Positions 4,692-13,439 of a stretch of 64,000 bases of DNA are shown piece after piece (position 1 is the stretch's first letter; the number at the start of each line of letters is the position of its first letter). Origin of the DNA: a phage; assembly GCA_012813795.1 (NCBI GenBank), contig GCA_012813795.1_4087.1, one strand, 5' to 3'. A program made the translations under genes and the position numbers. Under the pieces are notes generated by a model that saw only the letters and a program-made list of their open reading frames with translations, did no database searches and was not told where the DNA came from.

Positions 4692-5103
4692 CTACAATCT
4701 CCTTTTCATATTGCTCAAGTATCGAATAGATCTTATTGGAAATGTCCAATGTTTTAACATAATCACAGTACCTGATACACCCAAAATCATACAAAGTACT
4801 AACCATAAAGAATTCTTCTTCAGAGTACTTCTTTTCATTGAATGTAATGGTATTTGTAATTTTTCCAGATTCTGAATATTTTACATAGATAATACTACCA
4901 TTACTTATGTAATCTAATGTCTCTGAATACTTTTCAATACTAGAACTATGTCTAAATTGAATTCCTACAGATTTATCATACCAAAGAGATTTATTTCCGT
5001 CAGTAAGTATAGCATAATCAATCTTACGTTTATCATTGACACACATACCACAATCGGTAATTTTTAGTTTAGTGATATCAATATTCAACAGATCACTTAT
5101 CAT
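4678..5103 (-). CDS. EEx-FQ-SL paralog family member 4 (divergent)
   Basis: SEEEFFMVSTL variant of motif. Confidence 0.55.
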   Translation of the reverse strand: MISDLLNIDITKLKITDCGMCVNDKRKIDYAILTDGNKSLWYDKSVGIQFRHSSSIEKYSETLDYISNGSIIYVKYSESGKITNTITFNEKKYSEEEFFMVSTLYDFGCIRYCDYVKTLDISNKIYSILEQYEKEIVDDSK

Positions 5104-5527
5104 CCAATTCTCCGAATTTGGTTAGAGCAAACACTTTTGCCTCATCATGCAGTTTGTGAATTAGTATGATATTATCATATGTTAAATCTAGTACATTGTC
5201 AACAAGTGAACGTTGAAATAGTATCTCTTCAGATGTGATTTCATGGATGTTTTCTATCTTAATTTCATTGAATGTATCAGTTTCATTTTCTCGCGTACTC
5301 ATGATCAACGTACCACTCGTTGAAATGTATGATATCTTGGTATCCACACCATCAATGGTTGCGTACAGGCGAATTATTTCATATGAATCAGTTAATCTTA
5401 CATTAACCTTAATTTCATCCTCTGTACAAAACCACACACTTTTAGCAAAGAAATTGACACGTACTTTCATATCTTTAAGTTTATTATTTTGGAAATATTT
5501 TAGTACTTTTTTGAATGATATAATCAT
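5093..5527 (-). CDS. EEx-FQ-SL paralog family member 5
   Basis: TSEEILFQRSLV motif. Confidence 0.6.
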   Translation of the reverse strand: MIISFKKVLKYFQNNKLKDMKVRVNFFAKSVWFCTEDEIKVNVRLTDSYEIIRLYATIDGVDTKISYISTSGTLIMSTRENETDTFNEIKIENIHEITSEEILFQRSLVDNVLDLTYDNIILIHKLHDEAKVFALTKFGELDDK

Positions 5528-5544: not shown

Positions 5545-5940
5545 CTATATCGCATAGTACTTAAATAATGTTTTTAGATCATCAATAGTGAATGGTAAAT
5601 CCTCCAAAAGCAACTGTTGAAAGTAATGCTCTTCGTCAAGATACTTATGTATATTGATGAATGATTTTCTATGATAATCCGCTTTCCATGTAGGTCTTGT
5701 ACCCTTAGTATATTCAGTGAATACAATTTTGTCCATACCATAATCATACACGAATTCATTCTTTTCTGCAACCCCCTGATACTTTAGTTTTACCGGTTCT
5801 TTGCTGATAGAAAATTTATGCTCAGATGATTCATAATAGAATGATGATTGCTGATATTTTGATAAATCAATCTTTGAAAAATCATTTAGATAATAAGAAA
5901 GTTTAATTGTGACGATGCTGCCTATTCGACGACCCAACAT
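5545..5940 (-). CDS. EEx-FQ-SL paralog family member 6
   Basis: DEEHYFQQLLL motif; AGGA SD. Confidence 0.6.
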   Translation of the reverse strand: MLGRRIGSIVTIKLSYYLNDFSKIDLSKYQQSSFYYESSEHKFSISKEPVKLKYQGVAEKNEFVYDYGMDKIVFTEYTKGTRPTWKADYHRKSFINIHKYLDEEHYFQQLLLEDLPFTIDDLKTLFKYYAI

Positions 5941-5962
5941 ACTTTTATCCTAATATAAAAAA

Positions 5963-5979
5963 TGCCCCTGGGAGGGGCA
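5963..5979 (-). terminator. hairpin tgcccct-ggg-aggggca followed by T-run on minus strand
   Basis: 7-bp GC-rich stem, 3-nt loop, TTTTTTAT downstream on minus strand. Confidence 0.4.
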
Positions 5980-6089
5980 GTACGAAAAGATATAAAATGT
6001 ACAATAAGAAATGGAAAATATAATAAATTAATTTTATTATAGAAGGGAGGAAAAATAACATAATAATATGTTAGCCATTACTGGCATAA

Positions 6090-6641
6090 TTATTTATCAT
6101 TAAGCTCTTTTAATTTAGTCTGAACATCTAGTGTTAATTTTCTTAGTTTCTTAAAGACAAAAGCACTGTCATCTAGTTCAAGTTTCATACCATGTGTAAT
6201 GGCATAAAGAACTTCAGCTTTAGCCAAATCATGACGCATCCAATTACCATTCTTATAGAGAGTCATTACACAAAAAGGGCAAACACTTTCAGATGTTTGA
6301 TGACCAATAAAAACGGATTGTATCGTATCATGTTGGAAATTAATAAATGACTCGTTAATTTTTTGAATTTCTGCAATTACATCAAGTTTAGCATCCGTAT
6401 TAATAGCAAAAATATTGTTCCCGTTGTCATCAGTATTGATGTTTAGCTCTATATCAGAACCTATTTTGCGTACTGCCATTGTATAAAGCAATAACTCATA
6501 CATGTCATATGACGTTACATCACCGCTTGGTGCAGTAACGTTAAGGTTAACACCGTGATGTGTAACTTCAGTACTGAATCCTTCTTTATCTGCTAGGAAA
6601 TTTACAATTTGGTTCGTGAATTTTTGAATTTGTTCGATCAT
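6090..6641 (-). CDS. hypothetical protein
   Basis: ORF track; AAAGGAG SD upstream. Confidence 0.55.
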   Translation of the reverse strand: MIEQIQKFTNQIVNFLADKEGFSTEVTHHGVNLNVTAPSGDVTSYDMYELLLYTMAVRKIGSDIELNINTDDNGNNIFAINTDAKLDVIAEIQKINESFINFQHDTIQSVFIGHQTSESVCPFCVMTLYKNGNWMRHDLAKAEVLYAITHGMKLELDDSAFVFKKLRKLTLDVQTKLKELNDK

Positions 6642-6682
6642 ATTAAGTACTCCTTTACTTTGTCTTATTTAACAAATGAATA

Positions 6683-6706
6683 TAAGGCTCCCGATTGAGA
6701 GCCTTA
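6683..6706. terminator. hairpin taaggctc-ccgattga-gagcctta, T-rich on both sides
   Basis: 8-bp stem; downstream of gene 6719..7156. Confidence 0.4.
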
Positions 6707-6718
6707 TTTCTTTTTATA

Positions 6719-7156
6719 TTATGCGGTTTCTTCTTCGAACTTAGCGACGATATCAACCATTTCATTGATTAGTTTGATATGGTCATAAGTTACTGAACGG
6801 AAATCTACAACAAGTGACTGTTGGAAGAATTCTTCTTCTGGCAACCCACCATCAAAGTTGAGATCAACATTCTCATCATCATTAGTTGGTGCAACCTTGA
6901 TGTTGAAACTATTTTCATCAACAACCAGTTTAACTACACAACCCAAGCAGATAGATAGTACATATGCTGGTTTCTTAGCTGCTTCTTTACGGAAAGGTGC
7001 ACGAAGAGCACATACTACGCTACTAATTTCATCACCTTCTTCTTTATATTTGACGGTAATCATTAGCTCTTCAACTTTAATCGCTTCAATTACACGAGAA
7101 GGGTTTTCTGCGAAGAATGGGTTGTTACGGATTACTTGTTCAAGATTCATATTCAT
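6719..7156 (-). CDS. EEx-FQ-SL paralog family member 7
   Basis: LPEEEFFQQSLVVDF motif. Confidence 0.6.
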   Translation of the reverse strand: MNMNLEQVIRNNPFFAENPSRVIEAIKVEELMITVKYKEEGDEISSVVCALRAPFRKEAAKKPAYVLSICLGCVVKLVVDENSFNIKVAPTNDDENVDLNFDGGLPEEEFFQQSLVVDFRSVTYDHIKLINEMVDIVAKFEEETA

Positions 7157-7347
7157 TCCTTATTCATATCACTAAAGTTACGGAGATTGCGATTAGCTTT
7201 GAATTGTTTCAAATCACTGAATCGGTCATCAACCAAAAATGTTGCTGTTTCTGTTGCCTGACATGTTGTACAAACTAACATACCTTGTATTGTATACGCT
7301 GTATTGCAATTTGTACAGTACTTTTTTTCAATCAACTCGACGTTCAT
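7153..7347 (-). CDS. small zinc-ribbon protein
   Basis: CTNC ... CTTC cysteine pairs. Confidence 0.45.
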   Translation of the reverse strand: MNVELIEKKYCTNCNTAYTIQGMLVCTTCQATETATFLVDDRFSDLKQFKANRNLRNFSDMNKE

Positions 7348-7679
7348 AAAACCTTCACATCACTACGTTTATTTCGTGCGTCTTTCTTTTCCTCATCAGT
7401 TCGTGTATCATCTAATTGTAACACAACTTCTTTAAGAATGTCAACATCAATTTCAGCTTCTACGTAATGAAAGTCATTGCGACCAAAAACATACTTCACT
7501 GCAACCCATACACGCTTGTACCATTTAAGAAAAGGATTCAAACGCATACTGACTGTACATTGACCAAGTTTATCATCACCGTGTTCTTCTGTCAAGTCAA
7601 ATTGTGCAATGTGAACACAATGTTCATTTTTATCACCACAAGTACAACGCAACATAAACTCTTTGCTATCTTTACTCAT
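7344..7679 (-). CDS. hypothetical Cys/His-containing protein
   Basis: CTCGDKNEHCVH cluster. Confidence 0.5.
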   Translation of the reverse strand: MSKDSKEFMLRCTCGDKNEHCVHIAQFDLTEEHGDDKLGQCTVSMRLNPFLKWYKRVWVAVKYVFGRNDFHYVEAEIDVDILKEVVLQLDDTRTDEEKKDARNKRSDVKVL

Positions 7680-8137
7680 ACTGGATATGCCTTTTCAAAC
7701 GATTTCAGAACACCAAACTTAGCAGCATCGTAATCAAATTGATAACTCAATTCACGATTTTCATTCATACGATATACCATATGAAAGTTTGGATAACCAA
7801 TTCTAACAGGTTTATTAGAATTAGCAAGGAGAATTGCCCATTCTTTTACAGGGAACACATTTTCCTGTAACATTTTAAGATTACGTTCAAAGTACTTCAT
7901 AGCTTGTGTGCCAATCTTGTATTCTTGTTCAGTAATCTCATCAATCTCTACACTTTTGGATTCTAAATCAAAAACCCAATTGTTATCTTCGTAGTATAAA
8001 TCTTTTACATCATCGATGGTATATGAATCTGGAAGATCATAAAAAATCCACGCTGATGCCCCTGAACTGGTAATGATACGAATTTTATAATACTTCATCA
8101 CGATCCTCATTACTGTTAATGTAATAGTAACAGACAA
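7676..8137 (-). CDS. hypothetical protein
   Basis: ORF track. Confidence 0.5.
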   Translation of the reverse strand: MSVTITLTVMRIVMKYYKIRIITSSGASAWIFYDLPDSYTIDDVKDLYYEDNNWVFDLESKSVEIDEITEQEYKIGTQAMKYFERNLKMLQENVFPVKEWAILLANSNKPVRIGYPNFHMVYRMNENRELSYQFDYDAAKFGVLKSFEKAYPV

Positions 8138-8263
8138 TACAGTGTATTACCAATAAAATTAGTTCTATGATGTTAAGCATAACCACATGTGATTGTGGGA
8201 ACACCAGAGCCAATATCAACATTATAGTTGGAATGACGAATATTGTCAACTCTTTTTTCATGT

Positions 8264-8494
8264 TTATTCCTTAATATATGCATACGGCATAAAAACAACT
8301 TCAGCACCATCTACAGTATCAGCTATCACCTTAACAATACTTTCATTTTTGTTACATTGCCATACTTTTGTTATTTTATGCCTGAATACATTTCCATCTT
8401 TGACAATCCAGTACATGTTCATTTTAACAGTGCTTTCTTCACTTGGCACTAAAAGTTCATTTATTGGGGTTGCATCAAATGTTAGTTTGTTCAT
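8264..8494 (-). CDS. hypothetical protein (start uncertain; track gives 8545)
   Basis: Internal Met start reduces overlap with upstream gene. Confidence 0.35.
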   Translation of the reverse strand: MNKLTFDATPINELLVPSEESTVKMNMYWIVKDGNVFRHKITKVWQCNKNESIVKVIADTVDGAEVVFMPYAYIKE

Positions 8495-8822
8495 TTTTAT
8501 ATAAATCCAAAACATATTGTCCAAAATAAAGCTCAATAGCATCATTTACCATTTGAACCTCATTGCGATATATACCATTTCCACCACACACAGAACACAA
8601 ACACTGATACTGTGGTGTTTTTATTATAACACGACCAGCAGAAAATGACCTTATATCTTTTGCATAGTTCATCTCCATATATTCAAGTTCAAGAGTATGA
8701 TCTACATCCTTATTGTAACATATCCAACAAGTTCTTGAATGATTCATATCAGTTGAACCCCCATAAATGTGCAAATGAACTGTCATTTCTAACCAATTCT
8801 TTTGCATACGAACTAATTGCAT
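8475..8822 (-). CDS. small zinc-ribbon protein (CxxC pairs)
   Basis: CWIC ... CSVCG; resembles neighbour 8749..9024. Confidence 0.45.
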   Translation of the reverse strand: MQLVRMQKNWLEMTVHLHIYGGSTDMNHSRTCWICYNKDVDHTLELEYMEMNYAKDIRSFSAGRVIIKTPQYQCLCSVCGGNGIYRNEVQMVNDAIELYFGQYVLDLYKNEQTNI

Positions 8823-9024
8823 TCACAACCATAATATTAACACAATTCAACTCATGAAGAACAAGTTCATTACCACATAATGAACAAGATGTACTATAAA
8901 ATGGTGTTGGTAATTTTATATAGCCACCTCTTAATGGAAAGACTTGTTCCTCTATTGTCAACATTGTATCAGACGGAGTGACAAACATCTCACATTCAAG
9001 ACAACAAATTTTCACTTTATCCAT
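8749..9024 (-). CDS. small zinc-ribbon protein (CxxC pairs)
   Basis: CCLEC ... CSLCG. Confidence 0.45.
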   Translation of the reverse strand: MDKVKICCLECEMFVTPSDTMLTIEEQVFPLRGGYIKLPTPFYSTSCSLCGNELVLHELNCVNIMVVNAISSYAKELVRNDSSFAHLWGFN

Positions 9025-9511
9025 TATTCATCTCCTTCAGTACAGTTCTGATATCCTCAAAGGTCTGAACAAACCAGCGGTGTTCATCACTAACATCAAT
9101 GATCTTACCACTATACAAATAATAATGCTCAAACTTCAGAGTACTTTTACGCAATCGTTCAGCAAGTTCAGGATTCTGCATTATTTTAGCACATATCGCA
9201 TCCTGGATTACATTTAATCGCTCAGGTGTCATCTCTATACGGTCATGCATATATGTGTTTGCAGCGGCTTTCGCTGCGGCTCCTGACACCTTTCTAAGTT
9301 CTTCATGCTGTTGTCCAGTGAGGAACCAGAAATAAAAAGACTCAACCGAAGGAAACCATCCATATGGTTCTAGTGTAAAGCTATGGGGAGAAAAATTAGA
9401 TAAATCTCTCCCTAGCTTAGTTTTCCCTTTACTGTAGATATTGATATGCGTGTATCCATCTTCAGTACAGTCAATGTAGTTTTTTGGTTGTTCATCAGGA
9501 AATTCAAACAT
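9017..9511 (-). CDS. hypothetical protein (possible NADAR/DUF1768-like)
   Basis: LSNFSP...F...G.F.S.E pattern; weak. Confidence 0.45.
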   Translation of the reverse strand: MFEFPDEQPKNYIDCTEDGYTHINIYSKGKTKLGRDLSNFSPHSFTLEPYGWFPSVESFYFWFLTGQQHEELRKVSGAAAKAAANTYMHDRIEMTPERLNVIQDAICAKIMQNPELAERLRKSTLKFEHYYLYSGKIIDVSDEHRWFVQTFEDIRTVLKEMNNG

Positions 9512-9864
9512 TATTCTTCATCACCTGATGGTGTTCCGCGTAGTTTATCAAAATCTACCCAAATACCATGCTCATTTTTAAAACGACACTTACCATAGTA
9601 CCAGCTATAGTCAGTTTCGACACCTTGTGAATATGAGCGAACGCTACAATCATACATACCATAGAGATGGCCTTTTACACAGTATGTTCCAAATAACATA
9701 ACAACAAAAACAACGGCTGCACTGATTTTAGGAAAATCCATAACTAAATCGATAACAGAATTTTCTTGATGATTATCAATTTTAGAACGAATAGTTGAAA
9801 TAGTTTTCAGTACTAATACTGCTACAACCAATGAAACCAAAAGCACACATAAGTAAATCAACAT
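9511..9864 (-). CDS. membrane protein (N-terminal TM helix)
   Basis: Hydrophobic N-terminus LIYLCVLLVSLVVAVLVL. Confidence 0.5.
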   Translation of the reverse strand: MLIYLCVLLVSLVVAVLVLKTISTIRSKIDNHQENSVIDLVMDFPKISAAVVFVVMLFGTYCVKGHLYGMYDCSVRSYSQGVETDYSWYYGKCRFKNEHGIWVDFDKLRGTPSGDEE

Positions 9865-9865
9865 A

Positions 9866-10396
9866 TTATTCTCCTAACATTCTTAATACATTAGAAATAA
9901 AGAACACATCAAATGGTTCTTTTGGATTTGCTACAGAATGCTGAAATGCATATTCATGAAAATTTTCACGGTCTAACCAATCTTCATTATTAACTAACAT
10001 TTTTTTCTCACCAAGAATCACACTATGTATAGATGTGAAAGATTCTGTTGATATGGTATATCCAACCAATGTACCTTTTTTAGTGAAATCGAAAGTACCA
10101 AAATAATTTCGGGTATATTGTCTTGTTCTATTTTCAAACATTCTTGCAATATTTTCTTTGTATGGATCAGAATATGGCTGACGATATATGGGGTCTAAAG
10201 ATCCAAACATTTCTATTTTAGATTGCAGGGTTATTAAATTATCCGTGATAAAAAAATGAACGCCTTTATATTCGAAATCCTTCTTACGATTATATGAAAA
10301 TACTGATACATCCCACTCTGATATTACCTGAACGAACTCATTAACACCTCTTTCCAGATCGGGGAGATATGGTAGATCTTTATTATCGTATTGCAT
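9866..10396 (-). CDS. hypothetical protein
   Basis: Start moved to ATG with AAAGGA SD (track 10414). Confidence 0.5.
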   Translation of the reverse strand: MQYDNKDLPYLPDLERGVNEFVQVISEWDVSVFSYNRKKDFEYKGVHFFITDNLITLQSKIEMFGSLDPIYRQPYSDPYKENIARMFENRTRQYTRNYFGTFDFTKKGTLVGYTISTESFTSIHSVILGEKKMLVNNEDWLDRENFHEYAFQHSVANPKEPFDVFFISNVLRMLGE

Positions 10397-10964
10397 GTTT
10401 ATAATCCTTTTCAAGATTTAATACTTCTAAAATACTAAATTTATTGGAACCCTCAATGTCTTTAATAAATGCATCTGGATTGTCTTCTAATGAATATATT
10501 TCACCATTGATAAGCGTTTTTTCATGTAGAATCATAGCTGACATAATCTTATTACCCATAGATTCTTTCTCAGGCGTTGTACCATTACTATTGGTGAAGT
10601 AAATGAAGTTACTTGGTAGTTCACTCCACTCAACTGATATGATATTTTTCATAGCTGTTGTTGTACAAACTTTAATATAACGCTCAATAATCGTATTGGA
10701 TGAAGTTGCCGCAATTGTCATTGGATGACCGTGGGCAATATTTACACCGCTTGGAACTGCGATAGATGATGATATATTTGGAACATTGGATTCAATTTTA
10801 GGTTCTTTTATCCCTAAAATAAATTCATAATGACGAGCATGATGCTTCATTTTAAAAATTATAGTATCTGATTCAAAACTATAAGGAAGAATTATATTAT
10901 CATATGCACGCTTTTTGATTTCTGCTATACGCTCGAACAACTTAAGAGTTTCATTATAAAACAT
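10383..10964 (-). CDS. hypothetical protein
   Basis: ORF track; AGGA SD. Confidence 0.55.
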   Translation of the reverse strand: MFYNETLKLFERIAEIKKRAYDNIILPYSFESDTIIFKMKHHARHYEFILGIKEPKIESNVPNISSSIAVPSGVNIAHGHPMTIAATSSNTIIERYIKVCTTTAMKNIISVEWSELPSNFIYFTNSNGTTPEKESMGNKIMSAMILHEKTLINGEIYSLEDNPDAFIKDIEGSNKFSILEVLNLEKDYKHAIR

Positions 10965-10985
10965 AGTTTATATCCTATTAAAAAG

Positions 10986-11007
10986 GGAGTACATTATTGT
11001 ACTCCCC
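10986..11007 (-). terminator. hairpin gggagtaca-ttat-tgtactccc plus T5
   Basis: 9-bp perfect stem followed by TTTTT on minus strand. Confidence 0.5.
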
Positions 11008-11013
11008 AAATAC

Positions 11014-11568
11014 TTACAATTTAATTACTTCCTGAATACCAGTTTCCATTGCTTTCTTAGTGCGAGTATCAGAAACGACAGTACACAAATGTTCAATATC
11101 TTTACTTGGGAATGTATTAGAATCGATGATTTTTGAGTTCCAGAATCCTTTACGGAATTTCTCATAATCAGTACATTGTTCAATTTTCATTTTCTGCAAG
11201 TTATTGAACTTCTCACGCCCTGCATCAATTGTAACCATCAACTCTTGATAAATCTTAGGATCAAGATTTGGAACTTGTTGTTGAATCTGTGACATTACAA
11301 ATTTCTGATCAACTCCTTCACGTCCCTTAAAGTACGCTTCGATTGTCTCTTTCAATGCATCCTTATATTTGTCCGATACTTGAACCTTTTCTTGAATAGT
11401 TAGTGTATAACTACTCAGTTGACTTTCAGATGCATCGTAGTACTTTTTAATATTACCTTCAAAATTCACTGCACTATCATGTACTGAACTATACATACTT
11501 ACAGTTGCAAACACACCAATAACAAAAATCACCAACATACCAACCAACAAAATCATAGGCTTATTCAT
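11014..11568 (-). CDS. membrane-anchored protein
   Basis: N-terminal TM segment ILLVGMLVIFVIGVFA. Confidence 0.55.
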   Translation of the reverse strand: MNKPMILLVGMLVIFVIGVFATVSMYSSVHDSAVNFEGNIKKYYDASESQLSSYTLTIQEKVQVSDKYKDALKETIEAYFKGREGVDQKFVMSQIQQQVPNLDPKIYQELMVTIDAGREKFNNLQKMKIEQCTDYEKFRKGFWNSKIIDSNTFPSKDIEHLCTVVSDTRTKKAMETGIQEVIKL

Positions 11569-13374: not shown

Positions 13375-13400
13375 ATTATCCTTAGATAATTAATAAAATA

Positions 13401-13424
13401 TGTGCCCATTATACAATGGGCACA
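13401..13424 (-). terminator. hairpin tgtgccca-N8-tgggcaca
   Basis: 8-bp stem, T-rich downstream on minus strand. Confidence 0.4.
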
Positions 13425-13439
13425 TTTATATGTCAACTA

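What the first reader, a model, noticed from the sequence alone, without database searches (positions are those of the whole stretch)
7153..9024. Cluster of small Cys-pair (zinc-ribbon-like) proteins
Several consecutive small ORFs carry CxxC pairs (7153..7347 CTNC...CTTC; 7344..7679 CTCGDKNEHCVH; 8475..8822 CWIC...CSVCG; 8749..9024 CCLEC...CSLCG). The last two share a CxxCGxxxxxxExxxV pattern and overlap out of frame, so their true boundaries are unclear. Small zinc-binding proteins in phage early regions often act as host-protein inhibitors.
Basis: seen in the sequence. Interest (0 to 1): 0.45.

Follow-up and report, generated by a model that had tools for sequence, protein, structure and literature searches.

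The report
Small zinc-ribbon proteins in jumbo phage
Four real small cysteine-rich genes of an A4-like jumbo coliphage: two of them are tandem copies of a fast-changing, swap-prone zinc-ribbon family found almost only in this phage genus. Their function is still unknown, and the "overlap" between them is an ORF-calling artefact.

Summary
The window is 99.2% identical to Escherichia phage A4 (Asteriusvirus, 355 kb). The four ORFs are the minus-strand genes A4_108, A4_107, A4_103 and A4_102, all annotated as hypothetical.

- **Cys motifs:** they are present as described. The four Cys are invariant across homologues in the 64-aa protein (CxxC-x11-CxxC) and in the 102/103 pair. The 111-aa protein instead has a CxC...H...C pattern and no CxxC pairs.
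- **The out-of-frame overlap:** this is an artefact of taking the longest ORF. Gene 103 most likely starts at 8747, giving TGA-T-ATG after gene 102.
- **102 and 103:** they are 24%-identical tandem paralogues of an acidic family with no Pfam model. An exhaustive search of 1.84 billion proteins found only 7 clusters.
- **Copy number:** the family has one copy in most Asteriusviruses, two in the A4 lineage, none in RaK2, and possibly seven or more in one metagenomic relative.
- **Variability:** the locus is a hypervariable cassette. JNE01 and Turkey5 are 95-100% identical in most flanking proteins but 36% identical here.
- **Clustering:** grouping of different Cys proteins is not beyond chance.
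- **Unresolved:** structure predictions had low confidence, and neither early expression nor host-inhibitor function is shown.

Modest interest.

The parts
7153..7347 (-). A4_108 homologue, 64 aa: an N-terminal C4 zinc-ribbon motif (C11xxC14-x11-C26xxC29) followed by a conserved tail (TFLVDDRF.DLKQFKANRNL). Its start overlaps the stop of the 111-aa gene (ATGA).
   Evidence: It is 100% identical to A4_108 and matches phrog_27170 at E 4e-37. K9, Y10, C11, C14, C26, C29, R42 and K50 are invariant in 9 sequences from Asteriusvirus, RaK2-type phages, EJP2 and L009. dN/dS is 0.10 versus L005. A GAAGG Shine-Dalgarno sequence lies 5-9 nt upstream. Pfam zinc-ribbon hits fall below threshold.
7344..7679 (-). 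A4_107 homologue, 111 aa: it has a conserved C12-x-C14...H23...C41 pattern and a strongly conserved WYKRxW...KYxFG motif. It is shared across RaK2-like jumbo phage genera, and it is not a CxxC-pair protein.
   Evidence: It matches phrog_12660 at E 2e-50. tblastn finds it in 68 phage records: Asteriusvirus, Alcyoneusvirus, Eneladusvirus, Mimasvirus, Otagovirus and Atu_ph07. C12, C14, R56, K62, Y63, F65, G66 and Y72 are invariant, and H23 is nearly so. The 'virion structural protein' label traces to one peptide at 9% coverage for RaK2 gp182. The protein is absent from the phAPEC6 and CBB virion proteome tables. AlphaFold2 gave pLDDT 47.4.
8475..8747 (-). A4_103 homologue, 90 aa (corrected start): C7xxC10, a predicted long beta-hairpin, C51xxC54, then a hydrophobic C-terminal helix. 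It is the downstream copy of the tandem pair.
   Evidence: GenBank annotates the A4_103 CDS with this start. C7, C10, C51, C54, N68 and Y78 are invariant in the family. It matches phrog_35738. dN/dS is 0.29 and dN is 0.17 versus L005. pI is 5.2. The AlphaFold2 topology has pLDDT 58.6.
8749..9024 (-). A4_102 homologue, 91 aa: C8xxC11...C47xxC50 plus a C-terminal helix. It is the upstream and more divergent copy of the tandem pair. Its start overlaps the stop of the NADAR-like gene by 8 nt.
   Evidence: It is 24% identical to 103 (E 2e-6 for the pair). In the L005 orthologue C7 and C61 are replaced while C8, C11, C47 and C50 are kept. dN/dS is 0.24. A strong AAGGAG sequence lies at 9032-9037. 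Among isolated phages only A4 has a close homologue.
8748..8822 (-). The 5' extension of the longest ORF in the 103 frame (the 'overlap'). It is most likely not translated in this frame.
   Evidence: There is no Shine-Dalgarno sequence before the ATGs at 8822 or 8807. No single-copy family member has such an extension. Substitutions versus L005 are slightly more conservative in the 102 frame, by my reading of the alignment. Logan gene callers do call the long form (P0003, P0006), so this is not proven.
9017..9511 (-). A4_101 homologue, 164 aa: a NADAR-like protein, the conserved upstream neighbour, translationally coupled to the Cys-protein gene in Asteriusviruses.
   Evidence: The Turkey5 and Turkey3 orthologues are annotated 'NADAR domain-containing protein'. 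Here there is only a sub-threshold hit to TIGR02464 (E 0.011) and no Pfam hit. The start/stop overlaps are conserved in 121Q and JNE01.
8264..8494 (-). A4_104 homologue, 76 aa: the downstream neighbour, overlapping gene 103 by 20 nt. Its first ~18 codons lie inside the hypervariable patch.
   Evidence: the JNE01/Turkey5 divergent patch ends about 55 nt into this gene.
6682..6707 (-). A terminator-like hairpin, the likely 3' end of the transcription unit that contains all four genes. A matching terminator-like hairpin at 10984-11007 lies just upstream of A4_98.
   Evidence: sequence context. These are consensus scans only.

Best explanation
**Shown.** The region holds four separately translated small genes on the minus strand of an A4-like Asteriusvirus jumbo phage.
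- Three carry invariant CxxC...CxxC tetrads typical of structural zinc sites: the 64-aa gp108-like protein and the tandem paralogues gp102-like and gp103-like.
- The fourth, the 111-aa gp107-like protein, is shared across RaK2-like jumbo phage genera and has a CxC...H...C pattern.
- gp102 and gp103 do not really overlap. Gene 103 most likely starts at 8747, one base after the stop of gene 102.
- They belong to a tiny, acidic family (phrog_35738) with no Pfam model, restricted to Asteriusviruses and one metagenomic relative.
- In Asteriusviruses the family gene always sits directly downstream of a NADAR-like gene.
- The gene is exchanged as a ~310-nt cassette between otherwise near-identical phages.
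- Copy number is 0 in RaK2, 1 in most Asteriusviruses and 2 in the A4 lineage, with a probable tandem array of 7 or more in L009.

**Inferred (about 30% likely).** A zinc ion clamps the two knuckles of each 102/103-family protein into a small rigid scaffold. The variable beta-hairpin surface and the hydrophobic C-terminal helix then bind a variable protein partner. The most plausible partner is a host factor or defence protein, so the family would act as accessory counter-defence or host-takeover binders under diversifying selection. The 64-aa and 111-aa proteins are conserved and slower-evolving. They probably serve a different, housekeeping-type role in this phage group.

The confidence of 0.6 applies to the statement as a whole. 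The shown parts alone are about 0.85-0.9.
For: - **Identity of the window and gene models:**
- **Invariant Cys tetrads:** (C7, C10, C51, C54 in 9 sequences; 12 sequences; 64-aa family).
- **Chance expectation** for two CxxC in a protein this size is about 1e-4.
- **Coding status:** dN/dS is 0.24-0.29 for 102 and 103, with 55-63 substitutions versus L005. Shine-Dalgarno sequences precede the starts.
- **Start at 8747:**
- **Paralogy:**
- **Narrowness of the family:** 7 clusters among 5.8 billion proteins and 7 hits in an exhaustive HMMER scan of 1.84 billion representatives. Every matching isolate record is an Escherichia or Salmonella phage of the Asteriusvirus group, with one place per record apart from A4.
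- **Hypervariability:**
  - Against 121Q and JNE01, 102 and 103 are 22-30% identical while neighbours A4_100 to A4_110 are 56-83% identical.
  - Against L005, dN is 0.17-0.19 versus 0.005-0.06 for the flanks.
  - JNE01 versus Turkey5: most flanking proteins are 95-100% identical (A4_104, partly inside the patch, 89%) while the Cys protein is 36% identical.
  - The divergence is a sharply bounded patch of 57% nucleotide identity inside 97% identical DNA.
- **Copy number:** RaK2 lacks the gene. The A4 lineage has two. L009 is syntenic and has P0023 within a run of six further CxxC...CxxC-plus-helix ORFs. hhalign of the family profile against these six gives 73% probability, E 3e-5.
- **Charge:** all members are acidic, pI 4.4-5.7.
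- **Context:** phage NADAR-like enzymes counter the DarTG1 defence system in T4-like phages (PMC11825919, abstract seen).
Against: - There is no evidence about expression timing or about a binding partner.
- Hypervariability could reflect relaxed constraint or hitch-hiking in a recombination hot spot rather than an arms race. dN/dS stays well below 1.
- Two other neighbours, A4_98 and A4_99, are equally divergent between subgroups.
- Homology of the L009 array members, other than P0023, to the family is only moderately supported.
- The NADAR assignment of the neighbour rests on another record's annotation plus a sub-threshold hit.
- The long form of 103 is called by automatic gene finders and is not excluded.
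Confidence: 0.6

Rival explanations
1. One or more of these proteins, especially the 111-aa gp107-like protein, is a virion (structural or packaged) protein rather than an intracellular effector.
For: phrog_12660 is labelled 'virion structural protein', and RefSeq records of 121Q, PBECO4, RaK2 and K64-1 repeat that label. RaK2 gp182 was detected by MS/MS in purified virions. The family is shared across RaK2-like jumbo phage genera.
Against: The RaK2 detection is a single peptide at 9% coverage. The phAPEC6 orthologue gp135c is not among 62 virion proteins. CBB_370 is not in the 55-protein CBB MS table and was labelled by homology. In the Otagovirus Astolliot the gene sits inside a tRNA cluster. 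The 102/103 orthologue gp138c of phAPEC6 is also not in the virion list.
Confidence: 0.12
2. The zinc-ribbon proteins are nucleic-acid or RNA-polymerase binding regulators (like TFIIS/Rpb9-type ribbons or DksA/TraR-type zinc fingers) that reprogramme transcription or translation, rather than anti-defence binders.
For: Zinc ribbons are common in transcription factors. Weak fold hits include Rpb9, TFIIS, a Dof domain and a TFIIS-like phage protein. The 64-aa protein has a conserved basic tail (R42, K50, KANRNLK). Translation-related genes (IF3, peptidyl-tRNA hydrolase) lie nearby.
Against: All 102/103 family members are acidic, with net charge -1.5 to -7.5. All fold hits are insignificant. No Pfam model for these families reaches threshold. 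Cassette-like hypervariability is unusual for factors that bind conserved polymerase or ribosome surfaces.
Confidence: 0.18
3. The 102/103-family protein is a dedicated partner (regulator, adaptor or specificity factor) of the upstream NADAR-like enzyme.
For: In the Asteriusvirus loci examined (window/A4, 121Q, JNE01, Turkey5, and metagenomic loci L005, L006, L008) the gene directly follows the NADAR-like gene, with overlapping stop and start. The other isolate records match once each at positions consistent with the same locus.
Against: RaK2 keeps the NADAR-like gene (ORF179) without any such partner. In L009 the family array has no NADAR-like gene within 3.4 kb upstream. The NADAR-like protein is conserved (78-79%, or 99% between JNE01 and Turkey5) while the Cys protein is replaced, which argues against tight co-evolution.
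Confidence: 0.1
4. The real product at 8475-8822 is the long 110-115 aa form that overlaps gene 102 out of frame.
For: The extended ORF is open in the window, in an A4-like Logan contig and in L005, and automatic callers chose it (P0003 at 110 aa, P0006 at 109 aa).
Against: The extension lies entirely within the 3' end of gene 102, so its openness is not independent evidence. The upstream ATGs have no Shine-Dalgarno sequence, whereas 8747 has GGGGG (GGAG in L005) and a TGA-T-ATG junction conserved in A4 and L005. No other family member has an N-terminal extension. GenBank A4_103 uses the short form.
Confidence: 0.08
5. The ORFs are not functional genes, and the Cys spacing is fortuitous.
For: There is no Pfam family, no confident fold, and only 'hypothetical' annotation.
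Against: dN/dS is well below 1 with many substitutions. The Cys tetrads stay invariant at 15-35% overall identity. The genes are present at the same locus in the Asteriusvirus genomes matched. The chance of such a motif is about 1e-4.
Confidence: 0.02

Closest known systems
Classical C4 zinc ribbons (for example the TFIIS/Rpb9 C-terminal ribbon, or Pfam A2L_zn_ribbon and DZR)
   Same: They share two CxxC knuckles separated by beta-strands. The 64-aa protein has the canonical short spacing (CxxC-x11-CxxC). The low-confidence model of gp103 places the knuckles at the ends of a beta-hairpin. Weak sub-threshold Pfam and fold hits point to such ribbons.
   Different: No model reaches its threshold. 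The 102/103 family has an unusually long 36-40 residue inter-knuckle hairpin plus a conserved hydrophobic C-terminal helix (N68, Y78). Its members are acidic and show no sign of nucleic-acid binding.
phrog_35738, phrog_27170 and phrog_12660 (uncharacterised PHROG families of RaK2-like jumbo phages; for example 121Q gp74, gp79 and gp78, and RaK2 gp183 and gp182)
   Same: These are direct sequence homologues at syntenic positions.
   Different: Nothing is known about their function. The A4 lineage is unusual in carrying two divergent copies of the phrog_35738 gene.
Hypervariable accessory or anti-defence loci of large lytic phages (for example the plasticity regions of T4-like phages, or orphan NADAR-like anti-DarTG1 genes; PMC11825919)
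   Same: The gene is a small accessory gene next to a NADAR-like gene. It shows sharply bounded allelic replacement between near-identical genomes, copy-number variation and lineage restriction.
   Different: No defence system, target or phenotype is linked to this family. The resemblance is contextual only.
HNH endonuclease zinc-finger motif (CxxC...H-N-H...CxxC)
   Same: It has two CxxC pairs about 40 residues apart, and gp103 has a D-H dipeptide after the first pair.
   Different: The His is not conserved in the family, and the only invariant Asn lies after the second pair. There is no HNH Pfam hit. These proteins are not HNH endonucleases.

Membership tests
C4 zinc ribbon (structural class) | Four Cys arranged as two CxxC knuckles, conserved among homologues | tested here: met
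   The tetrads are invariant in the 102/103 family and in the 64-aa family. This is not met for the 111-aa protein, which has C-x-C...H...C.
C4 zinc ribbon (structural class) | Knuckles located at beta-hairpin turns that bring the four Cys together (three-stranded ribbon fold) | tested here: inconclusive
C4 zinc ribbon (structural class) | Stoichiometric Zn(II) binding | not testable with these tools
   This needs metal analysis of purified protein.
Pfam zinc-ribbon families (A2L_zn_ribbon PF08792, DZR PF12773, Zn_ribbon_4, Zn_ribbon_CSL) | Score at or above the family's gathering threshold | tested here: not met
   The best scores were 14.7 bits against a cut-off of 22.9, 15.5 against 27.3, and 10.6 against 29.2.
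phrog_35738 (102/103), phrog_27170 (64 aa), phrog_12660 (111 aa) | Significant full-length HMM match | tested here: met
   phrog_27170 matches at E 4e-37 and phrog_12660 at E 2e-50. phrog_35738 matches gp103 at E 2e-3 and 9 of 12 family members (best 2.6e-66). gp102 itself had no phrog hit at E <= 0.01.
Virion structural proteins (the label carried by phrog_12660) | Reproducible detection in purified virions | tested here: inconclusive
   RaK2 gp182 was detected with 1 peptide at 9% coverage. The protein is absent from the phAPEC6 (62 proteins) and CBB (55 proteins) tables. The JP4 supplementary files were uninformative.
HNH endonuclease | Conserved His-Asn-His catalytic residues between the Cys pairs | tested here: not met
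   There is no conserved His between the pairs, and the invariant Asn lies downstream of the second pair.
Diversity-generating retroelement target (as an explanation of the hypervariability) | Adenine-specific substitutions and a template repeat nearby | tested here: not met
   All 12 substitution types occur in the JNE01/Turkey5 patch, and the window holds no repeat of the region.
NADAR (the upstream neighbour A4_101) | Match to PF08719 or TIGR02464 above threshold | tested here: inconclusive
   There is no Pfam hit. TIGR02464 scores 16 bits against a cut-off of 73.7, E 0.011. The Turkey5 and Turkey3 orthologues are annotated NADAR.
Phage early-gene host-takeover inhibitors | Early expression from host-type promoters, and binding or inhibition of a host protein | not tested
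   Only a consensus scan was possible, and promoter-like sites are not enriched (53 versus 51 expected). No transcriptome for an Asteriusvirus was found.

The most novel reading that the evidence does not exclude
The A4_102/103 (phrog_35738) proteins are a previously unrecognised family of zinc-ribbon counter-defence binders. Under this reading they form a recombinationally swapped, copy-number-variable arsenal of 0 to 7 or more tandem copies. Each allele would neutralise a different host immunity or host-range factor, and the genes would be co-expressed with a NADAR-like anti-DarT enzyme in RaK2-like jumbo phages.
Probability: 0.2. Interest if true: 0.65.

Novelty: new member of a known kind. 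Interest (0 to 1): 0.3.

Why it matters
As it stands, this is ordinary jumbo-phage dark matter: small, annotated 'hypothetical' zinc-ribbon proteins.

Two results are practically useful. The first is the corrected gene model, with two adjacent paralogues rather than overlapping ORFs. The second is that the widely propagated 'virion structural protein' label for the 111-aa family rests on a single peptide.

The one feature worth following up is the cassette-like hypervariability and copy-number variation of the 102/103 family. JNE01 and Turkey5 differ in the compared 5.2-kb stretch mainly at this gene. They therefore offer a natural allele-swap experiment on whether the cassette controls host range or defence evasion in therapeutic-candidate coliphages.

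Tried and rejected
- **AlphaFold2 (both allowed jobs).** gp103 with a 9-sequence alignment gave pLDDT 58.6. The 111-aa protein with 7 sequences gave pLDDT 47.4. Both are too weak for fold assignment.
- **Sequence searches for known families.** An HMM of the family against PDB sequences found no hit even at E <= 10. Pfam and NCBIfam found nothing above threshold.
- **HNH endonuclease idea.** Rejected, because the catalytic residues are not conserved.
- **Diversity-generating retroelement idea.** Rejected.
- **A functional cluster of zinc proteins.** Rejected as statistically unsupported.
- **IMG/VR scan.** The scan for more family loci failed because the alignment is too divergent.
- **Literature searches.** I found no transcriptome for an Asteriusvirus and no paper on phage A4. 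The JP4 virion-MS supplementary files did not contain the locus tags. One paper look-up timed out.
- **RNA searches.** Rfam found no RNA families in the window and ARAGORN found no tRNA genes.
Full report
**Where the window comes from.** Megablast of window 6000-10000 gives 99.2% identity over 100% of the query to Escherichia phage A4 (ON286972.1, 355.5 kb, Asteriusvirus, host E. coli LF82). It gives about 75% identity to 121Q, PBECO4, phAPEC6 and other Asteriusviruses, but only over window 6009-8434. All genes in this part of the window are on the minus strand. The A4 record annotates the four ORFs of the finding as hypothetical proteins:
- A4_108 is window 7153-7347.
- A4_107 is window 7344-7679.
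- A4_103 is window 8475-8747.
- A4_102 is window 8749-9024.

The wider neighbourhood lies on one strand. It mixes topoisomerase II subunits, a clamp loader, proteins annotated 'structural', IF3, a peptidyl-tRNA hydrolase, a 3'-5' exoribonuclease and a DNA cytosine methyltransferase. It does not look like a typical block of tiny early genes.

**Checking the observation.**
- I made a crude gene set for the window of 94 ORF-genes with a Cys frequency of 1.44%. Only five proteins have two CxxC motifs at least 8 residues apart, and three of those are in this 1.9-kb stretch.
- By simulation, a random protein of 64-111 aa with this Cys content shows such a pair of motifs with probability 5e-5 to 2e-4. 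Each motif is therefore far from chance.
- The clustering is not significant. Three of five within nine consecutive genes has p about 0.15. Once the two tandem paralogues are counted as one event, p is about 0.65.

**Gene boundaries.**
- The 115-aa ORF at 8475-8822 overlaps the 3' end of 8749-9024 by 74 nt only because the longest-ORF rule was used.
- On the minus strand the sequence reads ...TGG GGG TTC AAC TGA T ATG AAT CAT... The stop of gene 102 is at 8751-8749, one base follows, and then there is an ATG at 8747.
- This ATG is preceded by GGGGG at 8758-8762, which is GGAG in the related contig L005. The TGA-T-ATG junction is conserved in A4 and L005.
- The ATGs at 8822 and 8807 have no Shine-Dalgarno-like sequence.
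- Starting at 8747 gives a 90-aa protein whose first CxxC lies 6 residues from the N-terminus. This matches its paralogue (91 aa) and all single-copy relatives, which have 3-9 residues before CxxC.
- GenBank uses this start. Automatic callers in the Logan assemblies chose the long form (P0003, P0006).
- I put about 0.85-0.9 on the short form.
- Genes in the block are tightly coupled. The NADAR-like gene and 102 overlap by 8 nt, 103 and 104 overlap by 20 nt, and 107 and 108 share ATGA.

**The 64-aa protein (7153-7347).**
- It matches phrog_27170 at E 4e-37.
- tblastn finds it in 47 phage records: Asteriusvirus, the Klebsiella RaK2/K64-1 group and one Erwinia phage.
- Across nine sequences down to 28% identity, K9, Y10, C11, C14, C26, C29, R42 and K50 are invariant.
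- This is a canonical short zinc-ribbon signature followed by a conserved tail, TFLVDDRF.DLKQFKANRNL.
- dN/dS versus L005 is 0.10.
- Pfam zinc-ribbon models are hit only below threshold.
- In Eneladusvirus and Mimasvirus the gene is absent from this position.

**The 111-aa protein (7344-7679).**
- It matches phrog_12660 at E 2e-50.
- It is the most widely conserved of the four, with 68 phage records: Asteriusvirus, Alcyoneusvirus, Eneladusvirus, Mimasvirus, the 174-kb Otagovirus phages (where it sits inside a tRNA cluster) and Agrobacterium phage Atu_ph07.
- The invariant residues are C12, C14, R56, K62, Y63, F65, G66 and Y72. H23, W53 and Y54 are nearly invariant.
- C41 is kept in all eight enterobacterial jumbo-phage sequences aligned.
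- At best this is a CCHC-type site, not a CxxC-pair ribbon. The most conserved element is the non-Cys motif WYKRxW...KYxFG.
- The 'virion structural protein' label (phrog_12660 and the RefSeq records of 121Q, PBECO4, RaK2 and K64-1) traces back to the RaK2 virion MS/MS table. There gp182 has one peptide and 9.0% coverage.
- The orthologue gp135c is not among the 62 virion proteins of phAPEC6. CBB_370 is not in the 55-protein CBB table and was labelled by homology.
- The label is therefore weakly founded.
- AlphaFold2 with 7 sequences gave pLDDT 47.4, which is unusable.

**The tandem pair (8475-8747 and 8749-9024).**
- The two proteins are 24% identical over 63 residues (E 2e-6 for the pair).
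- They are about equally distant from the single gene at the same position in 121Q (gp74), JNE01 and Turkey5.
- A profile search of 5.8 billion clustered proteins returned only 7 clusters. An exhaustive HMMER scan of 1.84 billion representatives also returned 7 hits. There is no Pfam family, and 9 of 12 members match phrog_35738.
- In 12 sequences whose pairwise identities are mostly 15-35%, M1, C7, C10, C51, C54, N68 and Y78 (gp103 numbering) are invariant and Y47 is nearly so.
- In gp102 the ligand set is C8, C11, C47 and C50. C7 and C61 are replaced in the L005 orthologue.
- All members are acidic, with pI 4.4-5.7.
- AlphaFold2 with 9 sequences gave pLDDT 58.6. The topology is knuckle, long beta-hairpin (17-31 and 36-51), knuckle, short strand, then a C-terminal helix at 69-89.
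- That topology is compatible with a zinc ribbon with a long insert plus a helix, but the confidence is too low to rely on.

**Evolution of the 102/103 locus.**
- Thirty-five isolate records, all Escherichia or Salmonella phages of the Asteriusvirus group, match the 121Q-type protein once each. With A4 and Turkey5, which were found with the window proteins, every matching isolate carries a family member.
- In the loci I examined the gene sits between the NADAR-like gene and the A4_104 homologue.
- Only the A4 lineage (A4, this window and Logan contig L005) has two copies. RaK2 has none: its NADAR-like ORF179 is followed directly by the A4_104 homologue ORF180.
- The gene evolves much faster than most of its neighbours:
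  - Window versus 121Q or JNE01: 22-30% identity, against 56-83% for A4_100 to A4_110.
  - Window versus L005: dN 0.17-0.19, against 0.005-0.06 for the flanks.
  - dN/dS is 0.24-0.29, so the genes are still under purifying selection and clearly coding.
- The clearest case is JNE01 versus Turkey5:
  - Nine of the ten flanking proteins compared are 95-100% identical. A4_104, which lies partly inside the patch, is 89% identical.
  - The Cys protein is 36% identical.
  - The DNA alignment shows a sharply bounded patch of about 310 nt. It runs from codon ~7 of the Cys gene to about 55 nt into the downstream gene.
  - The patch has 57% identity, inside DNA that is 97% identical.
  - All 12 substitution types occur and no template repeat exists, so this is not diversity-generating-retroelement mutagenesis.
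  - The pattern looks like allelic replacement by recombination.
- A neighbour-joining tree shows at least six deep lineages. 102 and 103 are as far from each other as from the other alleles.
- The most distant HMMER hit, the 73-aa P0023, comes from contigs L009-L011 of an unidentified RaK2-like phage:
  - These contigs are syntenic with this locus, carrying homologues of A4_104, 106, 107, 108 and 109.
  - P0023 there lies in a run of six more ORFs of 75-104 aa with the same build of CxxC (or a variant), about 30-35 residues, CxxC, then a helix.
  - That run is preceded by four Cys-less ORFs sharing a C-terminal (E/D)(Y/F)xxxLxxxG(I/V) motif.
  - hhalign of the family profile against these six neighbours gives 73% probability and E 3e-5 over the ribbon region. 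This is suggestive, not proof.
- Copy number therefore appears to range from 0 to 7 or more.

**Most likely mechanism.**
- Shown: these are real small proteins, and three of them have invariant C4 tetrads.
- Shown: the 102/103 family is acidic, restricted to one lineage, swapped as a cassette and variable in copy number.
- Inferred: zinc clamps the knuckles into a compact scaffold.
- Inferred: the variable hairpin and the hydrophobic helix form a binding surface for a variable protein partner.
- The best guess is a role in counter-defence or host takeover. The reasons are the acidic charge, the lack of any nucleic-acid-binding signature, and the position next to a NADAR-like gene. Phage NADAR-like enzymes neutralise DarTG1 in T4-like phages (PMC11825919, abstract seen).
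- I give about 0.3 to the arms-race protein-binder inference above, and about 0.2 to the more specific counter-defence-arsenal reading. Relaxed constraint in a recombination hot spot, a regulatory role, or partnership with the NADAR-like enzyme remain open.
- The partnership idea is weakened because RaK2 keeps the enzyme without the partner. L009 has the array without the enzyme, and the enzyme stays 99% identical where the Cys gene is replaced.

**Comparison with known families and verdict.**
- The closest known kind is the generic small phage C4 zinc-ribbon protein.
- Membership in any curated zinc-ribbon Pfam family was tested and not met.
- HNH and diversity-generating-retroelement readings were tested and rejected.
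- The genes are already in GenBank as hypothetical proteins and in PHROGs as families of unknown function.
It is wrong about the overlap, and the 111-aa protein does not fit the 'CxxC pair' description. The functional suggestion is plausible for the 102/103 pair but untested, and the 'early region' premise is unsupported.
- Novelty: new members of a known kind.
- Interest is modest at 0.3. The cassette-like hypervariability and the JNE01/Turkey5 natural allele swap are the only parts worth an experiment.

Noticed in passing
window 8221-8249 (minus strand), inside the small ORF 8085-8261: A perfect sigma-70 consensus (TTGACA-17 nt-TATAAT) lies inside the 58-aa predicted membrane ORF A4_105. Both the hexamers and the ORF are conserved in JNE01, Turkey5 (where the ORF is unannotated) and L005. 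The hexamers are degenerate in 121Q and L008. RaK2 lacks the ORF. It could be an internal promoter for A4_106 to A4_109, or simply a consequence of the coding sequence.
   Followed up: partly
window 13400-13436 (minus strand): A second perfect TTGACA-17-TATAAT site has its -10 hexamer in the loop of an 11-bp palindromic hairpin (ATGTGCCCATTGTATAATGGGCACAT). The scan also scores this hairpin as terminator-like on both strands.
   Followed up: no
whole window: The T4-type late-promoter octamer TATAAATA is depleted, with 2 occurrences against 9.8 +/- 2.9 expected from shuffles. The 'divergent RpoD-like' -35 motif TGAAACG reported for phage CBB is not enriched.
   Followed up: no
window 9017-9511 (minus strand): A4_101 is a NADAR-like protein, annotated as such in Turkey5 and Turkey3. 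Here it gives only a sub-threshold TIGR02464 hit (E 0.011) and no Pfam hit. It is a possible anti-DarT counter-defence enzyme. EJP2 has an ADP-ribosylglycohydrolase family gene near the equivalent locus.
   Followed up: partly
window 5093-5527, 5545-5940, 6719-7156, 9866-10414 (all minus strand): Several neighbouring proteins of 130-180 aa share a C-terminal motif, roughly EE(F/Y)FFQQS(L/V)...F...Y..I.L. It also occurs in CBB_371, Yersinia phage g371 and RaK2 ORF177. This suggests a dispersed paralogous family of unknown function. The window 6719-7156 protein (A4_109 homologue) hits seven different PHROGs, six of them weakly and through this region.
   Followed up: no
window 11000-11500, and window ~5900-6000: Against phage A4, mismatches pile up at 11000-11500, with 45 in 500 nt, mostly within the LemA-like 'structural protein' A4_97. 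The background is 0-5 per 250 nt. An indel breaks collinearity between window ~5750 and ~6000, probably in the 5941-6089 intergenic gap.
   Followed up: no
window 9866-10964 (A4_98 and A4_99 homologues): These two genes are also very divergent between Asteriusvirus subgroups (24-33% identity to 121Q and JNE01). They are 97-99% identical to L005 and 95-98% identical between JNE01 and Turkey5. This is a second variable block next to the Cys cassette.
   Followed up: no
L009:114-639 (metagenomic RaK2-like contig, not in the window): A ~500-nt stretch with no annotated feature in most matching records is 77-82% identical across many RaK2-like jumbo phages (Munch, 7t3, CBB, GAP32, XbC2, Hallingskeid). 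It has no Rfam match and no counterpart in this window. It may be a conserved non-coding RNA or regulatory element.
   Followed up: partly
L016 (Pseudomonas phage Astolliot), L014 and L015: The homologue of the 111-aa protein sits inside a tRNA gene cluster in the Otagovirus Astolliot. It lies ~1.1 kb upstream of a tRNA-Ser in CBB and Yersinia phage fHe-Yen9-03. The window itself has no tRNA genes.
   Followed up: no
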